Source of the DNA: Nanobdellota archaeon
Lineage (GTDB): Archaea > Nanobdellota > Nanobdellia > Nanobdellales > Nanobdellaceae
Length of the DNA stretch: 7,227 bases
Direction: 5' to 3'
Assembly: GCA_020697515.1 (NCBI GenBank)
Contig: JAIXNB010000032.1
Span: 1 to 7,227, forward strand
Below, one piece after another: positions 1 through 6,486 of the stretch. The translations under genes were made by a program, and so were the position numbers. The stretch's first letter is position 1. Every line of letters begins with the position of its first letter. The notes beneath the pieces are model-generated. The model searched no databases. It was not told the origin of the DNA and saw only the letters and a list, made by a program, of their open reading frames with translations.

Positions 1-1033
1 AACCAATATCACAAACTACTGTACAGGTTTCGCCTGGTTCACATATATTGTTATTATTATTATCATCATTTATTGTACATGTTCTAGATCCTACATTAGT
101 ATTATTATAGACGTTGATAATACCGATTTCTACTCTATAAATGGTCCTATCGGAAATTGGATATACATCAAATTCCATTTCTGTTGTATAACCATATAAT
201 ATCTGCTTGATATTATCCTTCCTCAAATATGTTATAATATCTGCTTTTACACCACCTACGTCTTCACCTGAATTATCATCATCCATATCAAACCCTATTG
301 CTAGGTAATTACGAGTTTCACTTTTATCAATATCACAAACTACTGTACAGGTTTCGCCTGGTTCACATATATTGTTATTATTATTATCATCATTTATTGT
401 ACACTGAGAACCTCCGACAACATCATTAAAATTCTTATCATTTGTCCAGATAACACCTACCCCATAAATATGTTCACTGGGTCCAAGCGTTATTTTAAAT
501 TTTAGTTCTACAGAACTATCTCTTAATTTTTGAAGGATACTTTCTTTTTTCCAATAATAGATTTTATCTGCTCCTATATCACCCACCTTAGTCCCAGTGT
601 CAGTACCATCCATATCAAACCCTACCACTAGATACCATCCGGGTCCCCTGTGGGGGGCAGTTCCTAAATCAATATCACAAACTACTGTACAGGTTTCGCC
701 TGGTTCACATATATTGTTATTATTATCATTTATTGTACATGTTCGTTCTTCCATAAAATCTGTGGCGTCATTAAACCCATAACCAGTGTACCAAGCAATA
801 TCTACTCCATGAATAGTTTCACCGGGACCTGGGGTTATTTTGAATGTTAATCTATGATAATCCTCCCCAATCCATGCTACTTCTCTGCTATTATCCCAAT
901 AGTGCTCTAGAACTACATCTGAAATACTTAAAGCACACACACCATTTGCTGATAATACTACAATGGCGAGGATACCTAATAGCAAAAAATTGCTTATTGA
1001 CATATTAATAGCTTTTATCAGTTTTTTCTCCAT
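1..1033 (-). CDS. Secreted/surface repeat protein, N-terminal 344 codons (C-terminus runs off the window start): signal peptide plus at least 3 tandem ~108-114-aa modules, each with a 4-Cys cassette
   Basis: Absent from the supplied track because there is no stop in the window. My hand translation of the minus strand from ATG 1033..1031 stays open to position 2. N-terminus MEKKLIKAINMSISNFLLLGILAIVVLSANGVCA/LSISD has a hydrophobic core and a V-x-A cleavage-like site. An alternative in-frame ATG lies at 1003..1001. Recurrent motifs are (K/T)FKIT.GP.E.I.GV, CTIND(D)N4-5ICEPGETCTVVCDI and GFDMD(D/G). A TATA-like octamer sits at -30..-23. Confidence 0.75.
   Translation of the reverse strand, partial: MEKKLIKAINMSISNFLLLGILAIVVLSANGVCALSISDVVLEHYWDNSREVAWIGEDYHRLTFKITPGPGETIHGVDIAWYTGYGFNDATDFMEERTCTINDNNNNICEPGETCTVVCDIDLGTAPHRGPGWYLVVGFDMDGTDTGTKVGDIGADKIYYWKKESILQKLRDSSVELKFKITLGPSEHIYGVGVIWTNDKNFNDVVGGSQCTINDDNNNNNICEPGETCTVVCDIDKSETRNYLAIGFDMDDDNSGEDVGGVKADIITYLRKDNIKQILYGYTTEMEFDVYPISDRTIYRVEIGIINVYNNTNVGSRTCTINDDNNNNNICEPGETCTVVCDIG
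4..79. repeat. 76-bp direct repeat, copy 1 (encodes CTINDDNNNNNICEPGETCTVVCDI on the minus strand)
   Basis: caatatcacaaactactgtacaggtttcgcctggttcacatatattgttattattattatcatcatttattgtaca is identical base for base to 328..403 by my comparison. Confidence 0.95.
328..403. repeat. 76-bp direct repeat, copy 2
   Basis: Identical to 4..79. The start-to-start offset of 324 bp equals 108 codons, so it is in frame. Confidence 0.95.
670..739. repeat. 70-bp direct repeat, copy 3 (same unit with a 6-nt in-frame deletion in the TAT/CAT triplet run)
   Basis: The first 57 nt and last 13 nt are identical to the other copies, and tatcat is missing, giving INDNNNNIC instead of INDDNNNNNIC. The offset from copy 2 is 342 bp, or 114 codons. 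Confidence 0.95.
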
Positions 1034-1055
1034 AAATATGCTAATCAATACCTCG

Positions 1056-1063
1056 TTTATAAA
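1056..1063 (-). promoter_or_regulatory. Archaeal TATA/box-A candidate for the surface-protein gene (leaderless mRNA implied)
   Basis: The minus strand reads TTTATAAA exactly at -30..-23 relative to the A of ATG 1033. Confidence 0.4.
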
Positions 1064-1115
1064 AGTTATTTTTACCACTCTATCATAAGTGCATAGGAAT
1101 CATCTATCTAGATAA

Positions 1116-1199
1116 CGCCGCGGGCGGGATTCGAACCCGCGCCCCCTTACGGGGAACGGATTAGCAATCCGTCCCCTTGGGCCGCTCGGGCACCGCGGC
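1116..1199 (-). tRNA. tRNA-Ser(GCU): tRNA-Ser (anticodon GCU), class II, 84 nt, no intron, no encoded CCA
   Basis: Minus strand, folded by hand: GCCGCGG UG CCC GAGCGGCCCAA GGG G ACGGA UUGCUAA UCCGU UCCCCGUAAGGGGGC GCGGG UUCGAAU CCCGC CCGCGGC G. It has a 7-bp all-G:C acceptor stem, a 3-bp D stem, a long variable arm (CCCC/GGGG), a GTTCGAATC T-loop, A37 and discriminator G73. Confidence 0.93.
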
Positions 1200-1203
1200 A
1201 ATG

Positions 1204-1287
1204 TGCGGGGGCGGGGATTCGAACCCCGGACGGCCCTTAGCCACCGGGACCTAAACCCGGCCCCTTTGACCGCTCGGGCACCCCCGC
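1204..1287 (-). tRNA. tRNA-Leu(UAG): tRNA-Leu (anticodon UAG), class II, 84 nt, no intron, no encoded CCA
   Basis: Minus strand: GCGGGGG UG CCC GAGCGGUCAAA GGG G CCGGG UUUAGGU CCCGG UGGCUAAGGGCCGUC CGGGG UUCGAAU CCCCG CCCCCGC A. All stems pair, with G37, discriminator A73 and a long variable arm. It lies 4 nt (CAUU) upstream of tRNA-Ser on the same strand. Confidence 0.93.
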
Positions 1288-1312
1288 AATAACTAATTAT
1301 TTTGAATGGAAC

Positions 1313-1322
1313 TATTTAAAAT
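1313..1322. promoter_or_regulatory. Shared, near-symmetric TATA element between the divergent tRNA operon (-) and the DHH gene (+)
   Basis: The plus strand reads TATTTAAAAT, with TTTAAAAT at 1315..1322, which is -30..-23 of ATG 1345. The minus strand reads TTTTAAATA at -34..-26 of the tRNA-Leu 5' end (1287). It is the only TATA-like element in the 57-bp spacer. Confidence 0.45.
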
Positions 1323-1344
1323 TAACTAAAGATCCTATCTTACA

Positions 1345-2385
1345 ATGATCTACAAAAAAATTGCAAACACCATAAAGAAAATTGATAATGCATTAGTTGT
1401 TACAGATAATGATCCGGATGGTATTTCTGCAGCAATTTTAATGAAAGTGATACTAAACAGGTTGGGTAAAGAGTACGGTATAGTGGTTAGAGATCATAGG
1501 AAGTTAGATAATTTAAGGGACATCATTAAAAATCATTCATCTTACAGTTCATATATTTTCTTAGACTCACCCTTTCCAGACAAGGATCTAATAGAAATGG
1601 CAACAAATTATAAGGATAGAGTATTTATTTATATAGATCATCATAAAAGAGCGATTCCAGAAGAATTACCAGAAAATCTGAAATATTATGATATACGTGC
1701 TTTAGGAATGGAAATAGGATCTACCGCTGGTATAGCTTATAAAGTAGGAAAAACTTTATTTAAAAATGATTTCAAAAGATATTCGATAATAGCAATGATT
1801 GGGGCGATTGGTGATTGGATGGTTGATGAAGACATATTGGAAGATTTTAATTCTGAATACAAAAATAGATTTGTTCAAAATAAAATATTTCTTTATCCCA
1901 CCTTTATTCTATTCAATACTTTCTTATTCGGTAACAGTAAAGAGCTTGTGGAAAATGGAGAGCTATTGATAGATAATCCTTATGCATTTTTTAGTAGTAT
2001 AGATTATGATTTTATTTCTAAGAGGATTAAATCTTTCTATAAAAAAATTGCCAATTTAGAGAAGATATATGAAAGTGAAAAATTACTAGTTTTTAAATCT
2101 AAGGGTACTATATCTATAATCGCGTCATTTATTCATGTATTATATCCAAGTAAAATACTGATAATAGTATCAAATACTGCTGATAACTTTTTAGAAAAAA
2201 TATTCCCAAGAAAATATAAGGTATCTGTTAGATGTAGTTTGGAAAAAATGGATGTAGGAAAACTTATGAGTGAGTTCACAAGCAGATATGGGATATATGG
2301 AGGAGGTCACCCAGCAGCCGCGGGAGGGAAGATTTGGATAAAAGATTTAGGAAAGTTAATAGAATTTTTGGAAAGCAGAATATGA
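1345..2385 (+). CDS. DHH/DHHA1-family phosphoesterase (archaeal RecJ/Cdc45-GAN-like or NrnA-like nuclease/phosphatase), 346 aa
   Basis: The DHH motifs are all present: VVTDNDPDGISAA (motifs I/II), YIDHHKR (DHH at 1636..1644), GAIGDW (motif IV) and the DHHA1 signature GGGHPAAAGG near the C-terminus. The stop TGA 2383..2385 overlaps the next ATG. Confidence 0.85.
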   Translation: MIYKKIANTIKKIDNALVVTDNDPDGISAAILMKVILNRLGKEYGIVVRDHRKLDNLRDIIKNHSSYSSYIFLDSPFPDKDLIEMATNYKDRVFIYIDHHKRAIPEELPENLKYYDIRALGMEIGSTAGIAYKVGKTLFKNDFKRYSIIAMIGAIGDWMVDEDILEDFNSEYKNRFVQNKIFLYPTFILFNTFLFGNSKELVENGELLIDNPYAFFSSIDYDFISKRIKSFYKKIANLEKIYESEKLLVFKSKGTISIIASFIHVLYPSKILIIVSNTADNFLEKIFPRKYKVSVRCSLEKMDVGKLMSEFTSRYGIYGGGHPAAAGGKIWIKDLGKLIEFLESRI

Positions 2386-4166
2386 GGCAAATAAAATTTT
2401 ATCAAGCACTCCTAATATTTGTAAGTGCTATTGCAGGTACAGGTATATTTTTTACCCCGATAATATTGACTAAACATACCAATCTAGTTATATACCAAAT
2501 TTATCTATGGATCTTTATTGGAATATTATTTGTACTATTTTCCGTGGTTTTTGCAAATATGATATACATACTTCCTAAAAAAGGAGGAATCTATGACTAT
2601 GTTAAACACCTCAATAAACATATAGGATTCTTAGCGGGATGGTTAGAATACTTCTCCATTGTAATAGTTTCTGCATTTCTTCTGAATTTATCTCTAACTA
2701 CTCTATCTCAGTTTTTTAGTATTAATACAATTATAGTTAGCATACTACTTATTTCGTTTTTCACAATTTTAATTCTCCTTGGTGCCAGAATAAGTTTGAA
2801 TGTTCTTACAGCATTCGGACTATTTACTCTGATCACTTTTATATCAGTATTTTTTTATAGCATTTTTTCTTTAATCCATATAGACTTCTCTAGGTTGTAC
2901 ATAAACCAAGAGGAACATTGGATATTATACTTGCCTATAATGATAGCTGCTATATTCGAGACTTATGCGGGTATAGAGATATTAGGATACTTTGCAAATA
3001 GAGATAATGCGAGGAAATTATCAAAAGCTACAATTTTTGGATCAATAGTACTCTATATACTATATATATTCCTAACCGCTTTTATGATAATTTGTTCCTA
3101 TTACTTTAGAGAATTTTATGAGCTATCATTTATCGGAAAGGTTCTATTATTGTTAGTAAGTCTGCAGATGTTTGGAACAATATTCGCATGGATGACTAGT
3201 GCCCCAAATTTATTATATAGAATGGCGGAGGATGAAAACCTTCCCTCAATATTTAAACGGATTAATAAGTACAGAGTACCGTCCTTATCCGTATTGCTAA
3301 CAGGGTTACTAATTTTATTTTTCTTTTTAACAGGGGCTTTCGAGTCTTTAATAAAATATTATTTTATATCAATAATAACAATATACTCCTTAGTTTCTTT
3401 TACGTACTTAAAGCTATCCAACACCAAAAAGCCGTTTTTACCTAAAAGGATATCAAAACTCTGCGCGGTTCTATCAATTATTCTATCAATACTTCTATTA
3501 ACACTGTATAGCAAGGAAGCTATCTATCTAACTCCTTTATTAATCGTAGGTTTATCTTTTTATATTGCTAAAGAAATTCAGAGGAATAAAATCCTTATAA
3601 GGGTGTTCCATGAAATATTCTCTCCAATTATAGACAAATTTTGGGTATTATTCACTAAAGATGACATAAGAATTATCGAAAGGTTAGTAGGGGATCTAAA
3701 TAACAAAATAATACTAGATTTTGGGGCATCTACTGGTCCAATTAGTATATATCTTGCGGAGAGATATAATTGTATTGTATACTCCTCTGAAATATCCAAA
3801 CATGCATTAAAAATCCTGAAGAAAAAAATACAGAAAAAGAAAATTACAAATATTATACCCATCCTAGATGAACCTGATAGGATTTTTGAGAAGTTTGAGG
3901 AATTCTTTGATATTGTAATAGCATATAACACTTTATCATTTCTAAAAGAGAGAGATTTGTTTTTCAGAGATCTTTATAGAGCTTTGAAACCTGGAGGAGT
4001 TTTTGTTGCAATAGTTTATGATAACATTTTCAAAATATTCGAGGCTCCGAGTTGGATCAAAGATATTGACATCATTTTGTCAAGATATGGGTTTGAGGCA
4101 GTAGTTATTAAAGAAAAACACATAATGTGGGATAAGATTATTATTTTTGCTAAGAAAATCAGATGA
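2382..4166 (+). CDS. APC-superfamily amino-acid/polyamine-type permease (12 predicted TM helices) fused to a C-terminal class-I SAM-dependent methyltransferase domain, 594 aa from ATG 2382
   Basis: The track ORF begins at 2334 inside the DHH gene. I prefer the in-frame ATG 2382, which forms ATGA with the upstream stop and immediately precedes TM1. Permease motifs are AIAGTGIFFTP, PKKGGIYDYV, ETYAGIE and YRMAEDENLPSIFKRINKYRVP, with 12 hydrophobic segments counted by eye. The reading frame continues without a stop into the MTase motifs. Confidence 0.85.
   Translation: MRQIKFYQALLIFVSAIAGTGIFFTPIILTKHTNLVIYQIYLWIFIGILFVLFSVVFANMIYILPKKGGIYDYVKHLNKHIGFLAGWLEYFSIVIVSAFLLNLSLTTLSQFFSINTIIVSILLISFFTILILLGARISLNVLTAFGLFTLITFISVFFYSIFSLIHIDFSRLYINQEEHWILYLPIMIAAIFETYAGIEILGYFANRDNARKLSKATIFGSIVLYILYIFLTAFMIICSYYFREFYELSFIGKVLLLLVSLQMFGTIFAWMTSAPNLLYRMAEDENLPSIFKRINKYRVPSLSVLLTGLLILFFFLTGAFESLIKYYFISIITIYSLVSFTYLKLSNTKKPFLPKRISKLCAVLSIILSILLLTLYSKEAIYLTPLLIVGLSFYIAKEIQRNKILIRVFHEIFSPIIDKFWVLFTKDDIRIIERLVGDLNNKIILDFGASTGPISIYLAERYNCIVYSSEISKHALKILKKKIQKKKITNIIPILDEPDRIFEKFEEFFDIVIAYNTLSFLKERDLFFRDLYRALKPGGVFVAIVYDNIFKIFEAPSWIKDIDIILSRYGFEAVVIKEKHIMWDKIIIFAKKIR
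3580..4163 (+). other. Methyltransferase domain of the fusion protein (Methyltransf_11/25-like)
   Basis: Motif I is ILDFGASTG (3711..3737). Also present are the acidic post-I residue in VYSSEIS, FDIVIAYNTL and the LKPGGVFVAIV motif. There is no in-frame Met between TM12 and motif I. Confidence 0.7.
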
Positions 4167-4238: not shown

Positions 4239-5486
4239 ATGCAAATATACGTTAGGGCAAGAAAAGATAAAGCCCTTTTGGACTATGTAAATGAGAAGGT
4301 ATATAATAGTTCGCTTACAATTAAAACATTTTGTGGAAAAAGGAAAGAAGAATTAATAGAGGAGATAAAACATCTGAAAAACAATCCCAAGGATTTTACA
4401 ATAGTTCTTCTTGGAAACGAAGATCGAAAATGGATAGATGAGGATATATCAGATGCTGTTACCAAGCTATATTTTGTTTCTAAGAAAAAAGTCAGAAATA
4501 CAAAGCCTAAAGCAATAGTTAAAGAAATAGAGATGGCAAAATCAAGATTTATTTTGGATATAGTGCTTGTAGAAGATTACTATAGATTAGGCAAAATGAG
4601 TAATTTCCTAAGGGAATTGATACCAGGATCAGACATATATTTGATATATTACAGTAATTACAAGGAAGTGCTCTCTAACTTCATAGAAATAAACAACTAC
4701 CCACTAGTATGGCATGTTAGAGACATAGACTATATATACTCGGCGGATAAGCTTATCGGAAAGATATTTAGGCCTCTAGACGGATTACTAAAATTTGTAA
4801 AATTAGGAAATGAAATAATAAATATTAATCTAGATAGAACTATCAAACATAATTTAGATTACATAAAAAGAAAAGAGAGGATGACTGTAGAAAAAATAAG
4901 GTTCTTGATGAATAAAATAGAGTTTGATAGAGTTATAGTTCCATGGTCTGGTGGTAAAGATTCTACATTACTTGTTACTCTACTGAAGAAACATAAAATA
5001 GAGTTTACACCTATATATGTAGATACTGGGTTAGAATTCGATGAGTCTAAAAAGTATATAGATAAAATTGCTAAAAGACTTGGTATAAAATATGAAACAG
5101 TATATGCAGAAATAGATAAAGCTCTGCGAAGTAATTCTTACGACCTCTTATTAGGCAGAAAATGTACTTTACTAAAAATATCCAACTTATACAAAAAAAT
5201 AGAAGAGATTGCAGAGAATCCCTTAATTATAAATGGAGATAGAATATCAGAATCTGAAAGTAGAAGTTTTAGACCCGAGCTAAGGAAAGATACTTTCTGG
5301 GTGCTTAGTCCTATAAAATACTGGTCATATTTGGACGAACAACTCTATTTTATTACAAACAATATTCCAGTAAATCCACTATATGAACTAGGTTTTTATA
5401 GAGTGGGTTGTTGGGTTTGTCCTTTTATAGATGTTTTTGAAAAATTTTTACTAAAAGAAACAAAATATGCAGATAAATTTCTATGA
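4239..5486 (+). CDS. PAPS-reductase-family PP-loop ATP pyrophosphatase domain (aa ~205-415) with an unrecognised ~200-aa N-terminal domain
   Basis: Motifs are VIVPWSGGKDSTLLV (SGGKDS at 4947..4964), PIYVDTGLEFDES, RKCTLLK, INGDRISESESR, SPIKYWS, NPLYELGFYRVGCWVCPF. This is colinear with the PF01507-type family (CysH/APS reductase/DndC). I recognise no family motif in aa 1-200. Confidence 0.85.
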   Translation: MQIYVRARKDKALLDYVNEKVYNSSLTIKTFCGKRKEELIEEIKHLKNNPKDFTIVLLGNEDRKWIDEDISDAVTKLYFVSKKKVRNTKPKAIVKEIEMAKSRFILDIVLVEDYYRLGKMSNFLRELIPGSDIYLIYYSNYKEVLSNFIEINNYPLVWHVRDIDYIYSADKLIGKIFRPLDGLLKFVKLGNEIININLDRTIKHNLDYIKRKERMTVEKIRFLMNKIEFDRVIVPWSGGKDSTLLVTLLKKHKIEFTPIYVDTGLEFDESKKYIDKIAKRLGIKYETVYAEIDKALRSNSYDLLLGRKCTLLKISNLYKKIEEIAENPLIINGDRISESESRSFRPELRKDTFWVLSPIKYWSYLDEQLYFITNNIPVNPLYELGFYRVGCWVCPFIDVFEKFLLKETKYADKFL

Positions 5487-6486
5487 GCTGCTGAAATGGC
5501 TGAGAGAGAACAAGAAAAAAATAAATAATACTTTAATAAAAAAAATTTACAAAACTTACAGAAATGGAATAATATTGGAACTTTTTAAGCCAGGTTTATC
5601 TAAAAAATATTTGTATTTAATCCCTGGTTTAGCTGTTTTTCTATCAGACAAAAAGATTAGTTTGCCTGCAGATAACTTTGTAATGCGTCTAAGAAAAGAT
5701 TTTGATGGCAAGAGAATCGAAATAGATATATATGATAATGAACGAATAGTTGTCGTTCGATCTAACGACAATAAGAAAATTTTTGTCGAACTGTTTCCGC
5801 CTGGTAACATAGTCGTCGTGGATGATAACGACACTATACAATATGCTTTGTTACAAAGAAATTTTGGAATAAGGAAAATAAGAAGAGGAGAAAAATATAT
5901 TCCACCACCAAGTAACTTTAAAATTCCAAATAACTTTGAGGAATTCAAGGAAATAATAGTAAATTCTAAAAGAAAAGATATTGTTAGGGCATTGGCAATT
6001 GATTTAAGGTTGGGAGGAAAATATGCTGAATTCTTGCTGGGTAAATTAAAGATAGATAAAAATAAAAAGCCTAAAGATTTATCTAATAGTGAGTTAGAAA
6101 TGTTATGGGTTGCATATAAGTCTTTCTTAACTAATAATAAAATTTATTATGACGGGTGGTCTAGAGACATTAATGAATCTATAGAAAAATATTATCTAAA
6201 GTATTTGGAAGAGGAAAGTTTAATTAAACTGAAGGAAAAAAAAGAAAAACTAGAAAACATATTAAAAACTCAATTAGAAAGTAAGTACAGATTACAGAGA
6301 GAGATAGAGAGATTACAGAAAATTGGCAACTTTTTAATGATTTATTCTTGGATTTTTGAGGAATACAACCCAAAGAATATTAAAAAAGAATTTGAAAAAT
6401 TAGGGGTAAAATTAGAAGTAAAAGATGATGGACCAAAATTAAAAATTAATATACGGGAGGAGGATTTAGAGAAACTTATAAGCTGA
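5467..6486 (+). CDS. NFACT-N domain protein (archaeal Rqc2/NEMF/RqcH, 'FbpA'-like ribosome quality-control factor), short form of 339 aa lacking NFACT-R/DUF814
   Basis: FVMRLRKDFDGKRIEIDIYDNERIVVV...IFVELFPPGNIVVVDDNDTI...RRGEKYIPPP is colinear with the RqcH segment FCMLLRKHIEG..IEKIEQ..LDRI...YVEI.G..SNIILTD...G.DYKLPP as I recall it. It is followed by an HhH-like segment (DIVRALAIDLRLGGKYAEFLL) and a coiled-coil segment (LKEKKEKLENILKTQLESKYRLQREIERLQ). The start overlaps the upstream gene by 20 nt. Confidence 0.8.
   Translation: MQINFYELLKWLRENKKKINNTLIKKIYKTYRNGIILELFKPGLSKKYLYLIPGLAVFLSDKKISLPADNFVMRLRKDFDGKRIEIDIYDNERIVVVRSNDNKKIFVELFPPGNIVVVDDNDTIQYALLQRNFGIRKIRRGEKYIPPPSNFKIPNNFEEFKEIIVNSKRKDIVRALAIDLRLGGKYAEFLLGKLKIDKNKKPKDLSNSELEMLWVAYKSFLTNNKIYYDGWSRDINESIEKYYLKYLEEESLIKLKEKKEKLENILKTQLESKYRLQREIERLQKIGNFLMIYSWIFEEYNPKNIKKEFEKLGVKLEVKDDGPKLKINIREEDLEKLIS

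What the first reader, a model, noticed from the sequence alone, without database searches (positions are those of the whole stretch)
1..1033. A 76-bp nucleotide-identical Cys-cassette occurs three times inside otherwise diverged modules of a secreted repeat protein
Seen in sequence: 4..79 and 328..403 are 76/76 identical, and 670..739 is the same unit minus 6 nt in a TAT/CAT triplet run. All offsets (324 and 342 bp) are in frame. Each copy encodes CTIND(D)N4-5ICEPGETCTVVCDI, with 4 Cys spaced C-x10/11-C-x5-C-x3-C. The surrounding ~110-aa modules share only scattered residues. Compare TFKITPGPGETIHGVDIAW, KFKITLGPSEHIYGVGVIW and EFDVYPISDRTIYRVEIGI, plus a GFDMD(D/G) acidic loop. Synonymous sites in the cassette have therefore not drifted while the flanks have. 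This points to gene conversion, recent cassette spread, or a nucleotide-level constraint rather than simple old tandem duplication. The poly-Asn tract is a slippage-prone triplet microsatellite, and the one difference between copies is a two-codon length change. With its signal peptide this looks like an extracellular Cys-knotted, possibly Ca-binding, adhesin-like protein. If the organism is an ectosymbiont, it could be a host-contact factor with a variable linker length.
Basis: partly seen in the sequence, partly recalled or inferred. Interest (0 to 1): 0.7.

Follow-up and report, generated by a model that had tools for sequence, protein, structure and literature searches.

The report
Gene-converted Cys hairpin in nanoarchaeal adhesin
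Three old, diverged domains at the tip of a giant surface protein of a Nanoarchaeota ectosymbiont share a 76-base stretch that is identical base for base, most likely because short-tract gene conversion keeps re-copying it; the process is known, but the protein domain is undescribed.

Summary
The ORF lies on the minus strand (ATG at 1033) and runs off the left end of the window. Copies at 4-79 and 328-403 are 76/76 identical, and 670-739 is the same unit minus 6 nt. In the cassette dN = dS = 0. In the flanks dS is about 1.1 and amino-acid identity is 27-36%.

The window is a whole 7227-nt contig of a "Candidatus Nanopusillus sp." MAG. Other assemblies gave the full gene: 1719 aa, made of a signal peptide, exactly three 4-Cys domains, about ten Ig-like domains and a C-terminal region.

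The only other lineage with this domain has a syntenic ortholog with one cassette. It keeps the peptide CEPGETCTVVC but shares only 6 of 11 codons and is about 75% identical in nucleotides. Paralogs are therefore identical where orthologs have drifted, which is concerted evolution by intragenic gene conversion and not a nucleotide-level constraint.

The same gene holds a second identical tract of 231 nt. The Asn/Asp tract of domain 1 has three length alleles among assemblies.

The process is a known kind. The 4-Cys domain matches no described family. A host-contact role is inferred, not shown.

The parts
1..1033 (-). 5' 1033 nt (344 codons) of the gene for a 1719-aa secreted surface protein; it runs off the contig end
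   Evidence: Open frame from ATG 1033. The full gene is recovered in L059 (P0023, 1719 aa, with stop). L054 is 100% identical to window 1-1345 and continues further.
932..1033 (-). Predicted Sec-type signal peptide (residues 1-34; likely cleavage VCA|LS)
   Evidence: Lys-rich n-region and the only strongly hydrophobic stretch of the protein (KD15 maximum 2.72 at residue 13). The ortholog has the same layout (VYA|FN). Heuristic only; SignalP was not run.
1056..1064 (-). TATA-box-like TTTTATAAA 22 nt upstream of the ATG; probable archaeal promoter of a leaderless or short-leader mRNA
   Evidence: The block GTGGTAAAA.ATAA.T.TTATAAACG is conserved between the window and the ortholog locus L001, although the intergenic region is otherwise diverged. 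Promoter function is inferred.
566..916 (-). 4-Cys domain 1 (residues 40-156), ortholog of the single 4-Cys domain of P0001
   Evidence: Alignments. AF2 model all-beta, pLDDT 60.7.
670..739 (-). Cassette copy in domain 1 (70 nt; CTINDNNNNICEPGETCTVVCDI)
   Evidence: It is 6 nt shorter than the other two copies. Length alleles D-N4, D-N5 and DD-N5 occur among assemblies.
713..730 (-). Asn/Asp triplet tract of domain 1; length-polymorphic between strains
   Evidence: A 3-nt insertion at about window 727 in L055, L053 and L056. P0022 has N5. L059 has +6 nt.
239..565 (-). 4-Cys domain 2 (residues 157-265)
   Evidence: AF2 model pLDDT 61.4, seven strands.
328..403 (-). Cassette copy in domain 2 (76 nt; CTINDDNNNNNICEPGETCTVVCDI + G)
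   Evidence: Invariant in every assembly that spans it.
1..238 (-). 4-Cys domain 3, N-terminal two thirds (residues 266-344); completed in L053, L054, L055 and L059
4..79 (-). Cassette copy in domain 3 (76 nt); the contig ends 3 nt beyond it
   Evidence: The window length equals the longest contig on record for its proteins, 7227 nt.

Best explanation
The window holds the start of a 1719-aa secreted, adhesin-like surface protein of a Nanopusillus-type nanoarchaeote. After the signal peptide come three tandem all-beta domains of about 110 aa that belong to no described family.

In the middle of each domain is a hairpin: strand CTIND, an Asp/Asn-rich loop plus ICEPGE, then strand TCTVVCDI. Its four cysteines most likely form two disulfides. 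The peptide is under strong purifying selection.

The three domains are old duplicates. The 76-nt segment encoding the hairpin has been homogenised recently, and probably repeatedly, by short-tract non-reciprocal homologous recombination (intragenic gene conversion) between the in-frame copies. Conversion is possible only where selection on the peptide has kept the DNA similar enough to pair. That explains why the tract ends sharply where peptide conservation ends.

The short GAT/AAT triplet run in the loop changes length, by slippage or by partial conversion, and gives loop-length alleles in domain 1.

Shown: the identity pattern, the paralog-versus-ortholog contrast, the gene architecture and the length alleles. 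Inferred: the conversion mechanism itself, the disulfides, the hairpin (low-confidence model) and any role in host contact.
For: - Cassette dN = dS = 0 against flank dS 1.12-1.15. The chance of identical codons given the peptide is 5e-8 for a pair and 2e-13 for a triple, and the rare codons GGC and ACC are shared.
- Concerted-evolution test. Flank amino-acid identity is D1-ortholog 37%, D1-D2 36%, D1-D3 27% and D2-D3 31%. Cassette nucleotide identity is 100% among paralogs and 74-75% to the ortholog.
- The ortholog P0001 is syntenic. Its locus starts with 32 nt identical to the 3' end of tRNA-Ser and has a conserved promoter block. It keeps CEPGETCTVVC 11/11 but shares only 6 of 11 codons.
- A second, independent homogenised tract lies in the same gene: 231 nt 100% identical, 630 nt apart, with unrelated flanks upstream and about 55-60% identical flanks downstream.
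- It is not an assembler product. The same three cassettes appear in L054, a contig named k127_, whose name suggests an assembly k-mer of 127, longer than the 76-nt repeat. L054 runs through all three cassettes and stops exactly 127 nt into the 231-nt repeat. The cassettes also appear in L055 (a different haplotype), L053 and L059.
- In L059 the domain-1 cassette is 76/76 identical to those of domains 2 and 3, on a background otherwise identical to the window over 2.1 kb. This is as expected from a recent conversion.
- Both AF2 models place the cassette as strand-loop-strand, and it is the best-scoring part of each model.
- All other cysteines of the mature protein come in one pair per Ig-like domain, which fits a disulfide-bonded extracellular protein.
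- Short, discontinuous conversion tracts that separate markers 20-30 nt apart are documented in a hyperthermophilic archaeon (PMC3367456).
Against: - No conversion event was observed directly. The L059 allele could be an assembler's path choice inside a repeat.
- Only one outgroup exists, so the timing rests on a single comparison.
- The tract boundaries are nearly the same in all three copies. This needs the argument that heteroduplex cannot extend into flanks that are about 50% identical.
- The AF2 models are low confidence (pLDDT about 61), and Foldseek found only generic Ig-like sandwiches with TM-scores below 0.5.
- If the habitat is strongly reducing, extracellular disulfides may not persist, and the four Cys could bind a metal instead.
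- The recombination genes of this genome were not examined.
Confidence: 0.75

Rival explanations
1. The identical cassettes are kept as in-frame recombination joints. Crossovers or conversions at them would swap, delete or duplicate the inter-cassette segments between copies, strains or silent donor loci. That would give programmed, antigenic-variation-like diversity of a host-contact protein.
For: - The gene is hypervariable between strains: 32 nonsynonymous against 8 synonymous SNPs between L059 and the window+L053 composite, and 5 of 6 SNPs nonsynonymous in domain 1 between haplotypes. The neighbouring genes are 99.7-99.96% identical.
- The ortholog has one 4-Cys domain and this gene has three.
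- Assemblies often break at these repeats.
- Nanoarchaeota surface proteins are reported to carry excess nonsynonymous SNPs (PMC6142677).
Against: - Every assembly that spans the region has exactly three cassettes with the same 342/324 spacing and the same inter-cassette segments.
- No silent donor copy lies in the 7.2-kb window or the 14-kb L059.
- No other cassette-bearing DNA was found in the collections scanned.
- Most strain SNPs lie outside the cassette region, at codons 701-1654.
Confidence: 0.08
2. The 76 nt are conserved because the nucleic acid itself is functional, for example as an RNA structure, a protein-binding site, an antisense promoter or a translational pause through rare codons.
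For: Perfect identity includes the rare codons GGC and ACC. Sigma-70-like hexamers lie on the opposite strand of each cassette, but the organism is an archaeon.
Against: - The ortholog encodes the same core peptide with 5 of 11 codons changed and is 75.7% identical in nucleotides. It uses common codons where this gene has rare ones.
- Folding energy is no better than shuffles on either strand (z = -0.10 and +0.65).
- There is no Rfam match apart from the two tRNAs.
Confidence: 0.03
3. The identity is an artefact of metagenome assembly: near-identical repeats collapsed to one consensus, or paralogs or strains joined chimerically through a shared k-mer.
For: - The window contig ends 3 nt beyond a cassette.
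- L053 has a 100-N scaffold gap between two cassettes.
- L054 and L055 end in or at the 231-nt repeat.
- One or two SNPs could have been removed by the assembler's merging of near-identical sequence variants.
Against: - Five assemblies from several samples, apparently made with different assemblers, give the same structure.
- The contig name of L054 suggests k = 127, which is longer than the 76-nt repeat.
- The copies are told apart by a 3- or 6-nt indel in most assemblies.
- Each inter-cassette segment is a unique sequence bounded by cassettes on both sides, and the ORF stays open for 1719 codons.
- Even if a few SNPs were collapsed, the contrast with flanks that are about 50% identical would remain.
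Confidence: 0.03
4. The domains duplicated recently, and the flanks then diverged very fast under diversifying selection or targeted hypermutation, while the hairpin was frozen by purifying selection.
For: Flank dN/dS is high, 0.57-0.98. Strain-level changes in this gene are mostly nonsynonymous.
Against: - Flank synonymous sites are near saturation (dS about 1.1), and the flanks differ by several indels.
- In the flanks domain 1 is as close to the ortholog as to its paralogs, so the duplicates are about as old as the species split.
- Purifying selection on a peptide cannot freeze synonymous sites, as the ortholog shows.
- Pfam listings for the genes of the window and L059 show no reverse transcriptase, and the copies do not differ in an adenine-specific way as in diversity-generating retroelements.
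Confidence: 0.05

Closest known systems
Concerted evolution of tandem domain repeats in microbial surface proteins by intragenic gene conversion or unequal recombination (for example the streptococcal alpha C/Rib repeats; from my own knowledge)
   Same: In-frame repeats within one surface-protein gene are more alike at the DNA level than divergence elsewhere predicts. Paralogs are more alike than orthologs.
   Different: Here only a 76-nt sub-domain segment (and separately a 231-nt one) is homogenised inside domains that are otherwise 27-36% identical. The organism is an archaeal ectosymbiont. No copy-number variation was seen.
Segmental gene conversion systems of antigenic variation (Neisseria pilE/pilS with conserved cys regions, Borrelia vlsE, Anaplasma msp2, Babesia ves; from my own knowledge, and PMC7485966 appears in the list)
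   Same: Short conserved stretches, in pilin also cysteine-containing, bound variable segments and can serve as pairing sites for short conversion tracts in a surface protein.
   Different: No silent donor archive, no expression-site architecture and no variant modules were observed. The conserved stretch is homogenised within a single gene.
Bacterial Ig-like (Big_7, Big_13, Big_3_3) multi-domain adhesins
   Same: The remainder of the protein matches these Pfam families above threshold. It is a long chain of beta-sandwich domains with one Cys pair each, behind a signal peptide.
   Different: The three N-terminal 4-Cys domains match no Pfam or NCBIfam model. They have no specific structural neighbour.
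Triplet-repeat length variation in surface proteins (for example staphylococcal Ser-Asp repeats, PMC3324548 in the list)
   Same: An in-frame triplet run in a surface protein differs in length between strains.
   Different: The run is very short, 2-3 perfect AAT units plus 1-2 GAT. The changes are one or two codons and stay in frame, so there is no on/off switching. Partial conversion from the sister cassettes explains the alleles equally well.

Membership tests
Concerted evolution by intragenic gene conversion | Paralogous segments within a genome are more similar to each other than to the orthologous segment of a related genome, while their flanks are not | tested here: met
   cassette paralogs 100% nucleotide identity against 74-75% to the ortholog. 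Flank amino-acid identity D1-ortholog 37% against D1-D2 36%, D1-D3 27% and D2-D3 31%.
Concerted evolution by intragenic gene conversion | Synonymous sites are homogenised inside a tract with sharp boundaries | tested here: met
   dS = 0 in 23-25 codons against 1.12-1.15 outside. Identity drops within 0-5 nt of each end of the tract.
Concerted evolution by intragenic gene conversion | Independent conversion tracts or polymorphic conversion events in the same locus | tested here: inconclusive
   A second 231-nt identical tract exists. The L059 domain-1 cassette equals those of domains 2 and 3 on a window-type background, but this could be an assembler's path choice.
Concerted evolution by intragenic gene conversion | Homologous recombination machinery (RadA and partners) present in the genome | not tested
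   Only 7.2 kb plus about 14 kb of the genome was available.
Programmed antigenic-variation cassette system | Silent donor cassettes elsewhere in the genome, and variant modules at the expression site among clones | tested here: not met
   No further cassette copies lie in the window or L059. All assemblies carry the same modules. A genome-wide search was not possible.
Simple-sequence contingency locus (phase variation) | A repeat tract whose length changes switch expression by frameshift or promoter spacing | tested here: not met
   Length alleles exist but are multiples of 3 inside the ORF. The tract has only 2-3 perfect units.
Diversity-generating retroelement target | Template and variable repeat pair differing at adenines, with a nearby reverse transcriptase | tested here: not met
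   The copies are identical rather than adenine-mutated. Pfam listings for the genes of the window and L059 show no reverse transcriptase.
Bacterial Ig-like domain surface proteins (Pfam Big_7, Big_13, Big_3_3) | Match to the Pfam models above the gathering score | tested here: met
   on the 1662-aa composite: Big_7 83.2 bits (cut-off 24.1), Big_13 52 bits (27), Big_3_3 47.9 bits (27). All hits lie downstream of the window part. The 4-Cys domains themselves have no hit.
Sec-dependent secreted protein | N-terminal signal peptide: positive n-region, hydrophobic h-region, small residues at -3/-1 | tested here: inconclusive
   Manual criteria are met in the window protein and the ortholog. No dedicated predictor was available.
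Functional RNA or structured nucleic-acid element | Stable or conserved secondary structure, or a match to an RNA family | tested here: not met
   z = -0.10 and +0.65 against shuffles. Rfam finds only the two tRNAs. Synonymous sites are not conserved in the ortholog.

The most novel reading that the evidence does not exclude
The nucleotide-identical hairpin cassettes and their triplet run form a built-in variation device of an archaeal ectosymbiont. In this reading conversion and slippage at the cassettes tune the loop length, and crossovers at them occasionally reshuffle the half-domains between them, at the distal tip of the main host-contact adhesin. It would be an archaeal counterpart of bacterial segmental-conversion antigenic variation, acting on host or virus recognition.
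Probability: 0.1. Interest if true: 0.75.

Novelty: new member of a known kind. Interest (0 to 1): 0.42.

Why it matters
Nanoarchaeota must attach to a host archaeon to live, and the molecules that make contact are unknown. This gene is a concrete candidate:
- It is a giant protein with a predicted signal peptide and Ig-like adhesin-type domains.
- It varies strongly between strains.
- Its N-terminal domains belong to no described family.

It also shows short-tract gene conversion shaping a surface protein within an archaeal gene. It is also a practical warning. The repeats break most short-read assemblies, and the gene is deposited only as partial 'hypothetical protein' fragments. As a result protein clustering hid it from the homology searches.

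Tried and rejected
- Degenerate-codon scans for C-E-P-G-E-x-C-x-V-x-C in genome contigs, metagenome contigs and viral contigs returned only unrelated high-GC bacterial proteins or nothing.
- Pfam and NCBIfam gave nothing for the 4-Cys part.
- phmmer against 1.84 billion representatives and the word-indexed search found only P0001.
- A profile of the four domain copies found nothing, not even P0001.
- Searching with P0001 hit only its Ig-like domains in other proteins.
- RNA folding and Rfam were negative.
- Tandem Repeats Finder saw nothing, because the modules are too diverged.
- Literature searches for the sample ids and for the motif CEPGETC returned nothing.
- An exact look-up of the window's DHH protein failed at first. 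The route that worked was listing of cluster members followed by the look-up of encoding contigs on cluster siblings.
- A lipobox and a class III (pilin-type) signal were considered and rejected by eye. The Cys in the signal region is Tyr in the ortholog, and no G/A cleavage motif precedes the hydrophobic stretch.
- A Ca-binding loop was considered but not supported, because GFDMD is absent from the ortholog.
Full report
**What is in the window**

The ORF behind the finding is on the minus strand. It starts at the ATG at 1033 and is still open at position 1, giving 344 codons.

The repeat finder confirms that 4-79 and 328-403 are 76/76 identical. 670-739 is the same unit lacking 6 nt. The offsets of 324 and 342 nt are in frame. 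The 39-nt core occurs three times in the window and never in 200 shuffles.

Each copy encodes CTIND(D)N4-5ICEPGETCTVVCDI. The Cys spacing is x9 in domain 1 and x11 in domains 2 and 3, then x5 and x3. These twelve cysteines are the only ones in the mature part seen in the window.

**Cassette versus flanks**

| Measure | Cassette | Flanks |
|---|---|---|
| Nucleotide identity between copies | 100% over 23-25 codons | 42-55% |
| dS (Nei-Gojobori) | 0 | 1.12-1.15 |
| dN (Nei-Gojobori) | 0 | 0.66-1.13 |

- The flanks also differ by several indels.
- At flank positions with the same amino acid, 38 of 56 codons match, against 27 expected from independent draws. Flank synonymous sites are therefore close to saturation.
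- Given the peptide and the codon usage of the other genes on the contig, two copies would share every codon with probability 5e-8, and three copies with probability 2e-13.
- All copies use GGC (6% of Gly codons) and ACC (14% of Thr codons).

**Organism and context**

- The neighbouring genes are archaeal: RLI/ABCE1, an archaeal RqcH N-terminal half, a RecJ-like DHH protein and a PAPS-reductase-like protein.
- Two tandem tRNAs of 72-74% GC sit in a contig of 30% GC.
- Members of the 90%-identity clusters that hold the window's proteins are named 'Candidatus Nanopusillus sp.' in NCBI MAG records. The longest contig on record for the window's own proteins is 7227 nt, so the window is a whole contig.
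- Nanopusillus belongs to Nanoarchaeales. Cultured members of that group are obligate ectosymbionts of other archaea (PMC6142677).
- The sample names (ANDE17-1, FS848) look like deep-sea vent metagenomes. That is my recollection and was not tested.

**Getting the whole gene**

Exact look-ups of cluster siblings led to other assemblies of the same locus.

| Assembly | Relation to the window | Extent of the gene |
|---|---|---|
| L054 (contig name k127_) | 100% identical to window 1-1345 | 285 nt further |
| L055 (NCBI DQUC01000075.1) | a second haplotype | 389 nt further |
| L053 | carries a 100-N scaffold gap between two cassettes | 3955 nt further |
| L059 | no nucleotide difference over the first 2.1 kb of the CDS except a 6-nt indel | complete gene: P0023, 1719 aa, with stop |

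The gene has exactly three cassettes. Its architecture is as follows:
- a signal peptide;
- three 4-Cys domains;
- about ten Ig-like domains: Pfam Big_7 83 bits, Big_13 52 bits, Big_3_3 48 bits, each above the gathering score, with one Cys pair per domain;
- a C-terminal region shared with P0001.

There are 27 N-X-S/T sequons and no hydrophobic stretch other than the N-terminal one. The ORF is therefore intact, and the protein has the make-up of a giant secreted adhesin-like protein.

**The ortholog and the key test**

Two searches of billions of proteins found one other protein with this domain, P0001 of 557 aa.
- Its locus L001 begins with 32 nt identical to the 3' end of the window's tRNA-Ser.
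- It shares a conserved TATA/BRE-like block 22 nt upstream of the ATG. It is therefore a positional ortholog from a related organism.
- It has a single 4-Cys domain followed by Ig-like domains.
- Its cassette keeps CEPGETCTVVC 11/11, but only 6 of 11 codons are the same. Nucleotide identity is 75.7%.

In the flanks domain 1 is as similar to the ortholog (37% aa) as to its own paralogs (36% and 27%). In the cassette the paralogs are 100% identical and the ortholog is 74%. This is the signature of concerted evolution.

A nucleotide-level constraint would be conserved in the ortholog, and it is not. A recently spread cassette would not sit at the same place in a homologous domain of the ortholog, and it does.

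RNA folding of either strand is unremarkable. Rfam finds only the tRNAs.

**More evidence for conversion in this gene**

A second pair of segments, 630 nt apart, is 100% identical over 231 nt. Their upstream flanks are unrelated, and their downstream flanks are about 55-60% identical. The boundaries are the same in two strains. These segments cover the first three quarters of an Ig-like domain in an old two-domain duplication.

Short, patchy conversion tracts are documented for Sulfolobus acidocaldarius (PMC3367456). This makes tracts of 76-231 nt and partial conversions plausible in a hyperthermophilic archaeon.

**Is it an assembly artefact?**

The repeats clearly disturb assembly:
- the window contig ends 3 nt past a cassette;
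- L053 has a gap between cassettes;
- L054 ends exactly 127 nt into the 231-nt repeat;
- L055 ends exactly at the far edge of that repeat.

Even so, five assemblies from several samples agree on the structure. The contig name of L054 suggests k = 127, longer than the 76-nt repeat, and that contig passes through all three cassettes. The copies are distinguished by an indel in most assemblies. Collapse of one or two SNPs cannot be excluded, but it would not change the picture.

**Variation between strains**

The domain-1 cassette has three length alleles:
- D-N4 in the window and L054;
- D-N5 in L055, L053, L056 and P0022;
- DD-N5 in L059, where it is 76/76 identical to the cassettes of domains 2 and 3.

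The cassettes of domains 2 and 3 are the same in every assembly that spans them.

The two haplotypes differ at six positions in the first 1033 nt. Five of these are nonsynonymous, at codons 25, 71, 86, 87 and 88, just before the domain-1 hairpin.

L059 and the window+L053 composite differ at 40 positions, 32 nonsynonymous and 8 synonymous, all in codons 701-1654. The neighbouring genes are 99.7-99.96% identical.

This fits the excess of nonsynonymous SNPs reported for putative surface proteins of Nanoarchaeota (PMC6142677). No variation in module number was seen.

**Structure**

Two AlphaFold models built on four-sequence alignments are all-beta, with pLDDT of about 61. In both, the cassette forms strand-loop-strand and is the most confident part. 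Foldseek against PDB gives only generic Ig-like or jelly-roll sandwiches with TM-scores below 0.5.

The hairpin, the two disulfides and any Ca binding are inferences. The GFDMD loop is not conserved in the ortholog.

**Verdict**

The cassette is a peptide-constrained beta-hairpin segment kept nucleotide-identical by intragenic gene conversion. It lies inside an old three-fold domain expansion at the N-terminus of a giant, strain-variable surface protein of a nanoarchaeal ectosymbiont. Its short triplet run is length-polymorphic.

The process is well known, so I rate this as a new member of a known kind. The 4-Cys domain itself is undescribed and seen in two lineages only. One caveat applies to that count: the searches see only cluster representatives, and this gene's own cluster is represented by a C-terminal fragment without the cassettes.

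A role as a host-contact factor, or as a deliberate variation device, is possible but not shown.

Noticed in passing
L053 2937-3167 and 3567-3797; L059 1456-1686 and 2086-2316 (same gene, beyond the window's left end): A second homogenised tract: 231 nt 100% identical, 630 nt apart, covering three quarters of an Ig-like domain. Upstream flanks are unrelated and downstream flanks are about 55-60% identical. The boundaries are the same in two strains.
   Followed up: yes
L059 259-5418 against window 1-1033 plus L053 1-3955: The gene is hypervariable between near-identical strains: 40 SNPs, 32 nonsynonymous and 8 synonymous, all in codons 701-1654. Between the two haplotypes 5 of 6 SNPs in domain 1 are nonsynonymous (window 960, 822, 777, 775, 770; the synonymous one is at 461). 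The neighbouring genes are 99.7-99.96% identical.
   Followed up: partly
window 5467-6486 (+): The 339-aa ORF matches only positions 4-322 of the 645-position archaeal RqcH model, and the next gene is RLI on the other strand. The ribosome-rescue gene therefore looks split or truncated.
   Followed up: no
window 2334-4166 (+): A single ORF fuses an APC-type amino-acid permease (residues about 20-420) to a class I SAM-dependent methyltransferase domain (about 445-565). It overlaps the end of the DHH gene by 52 nt. Other assemblies call it with a later start (594 aa).
   Followed up: no
window 1115-1287 (-): tRNA-Ser(GCT) and tRNA-Leu(TAG) lie 2 nt apart and have 72-74% GC in a 30% GC contig. Several assemblies of this locus start inside them (L049 at 1133, L050 at 1237). 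The ortholog locus L001 starts with 32 nt identical to the end of tRNA-Ser.
   Followed up: partly
window 1034-1114 (-) and L001 33-115: A conserved block GTGGTAAAA.ATAA.T.TTATAAACG lies 22 nt upstream of the ATG in both the window and the ortholog locus, inside an otherwise diverged intergenic region. It is probably a BRE/TATA promoter of a leaderless or short-leader transcript.
   Followed up: partly
protein searches: The gene's own 90% cluster was invisible to the homology searches, because its representative (P0021) is a C-terminal fragment without the cassettes. A profile that contained P0001's own domain did not return P0001. Claims of an 'orphan family' made from these searches are weaker than they look.
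   Followed up: partly
L059 5818-14188: Downstream of the full gene lie DJ-1/PfpI, two large proteins without confident Pfam hits (548 and 674 aa), SecY, L34e and a KOW-domain protein. The adhesin-like gene therefore sits in ordinary chromosomal context and not on an obvious mobile element.
   Followed up: no
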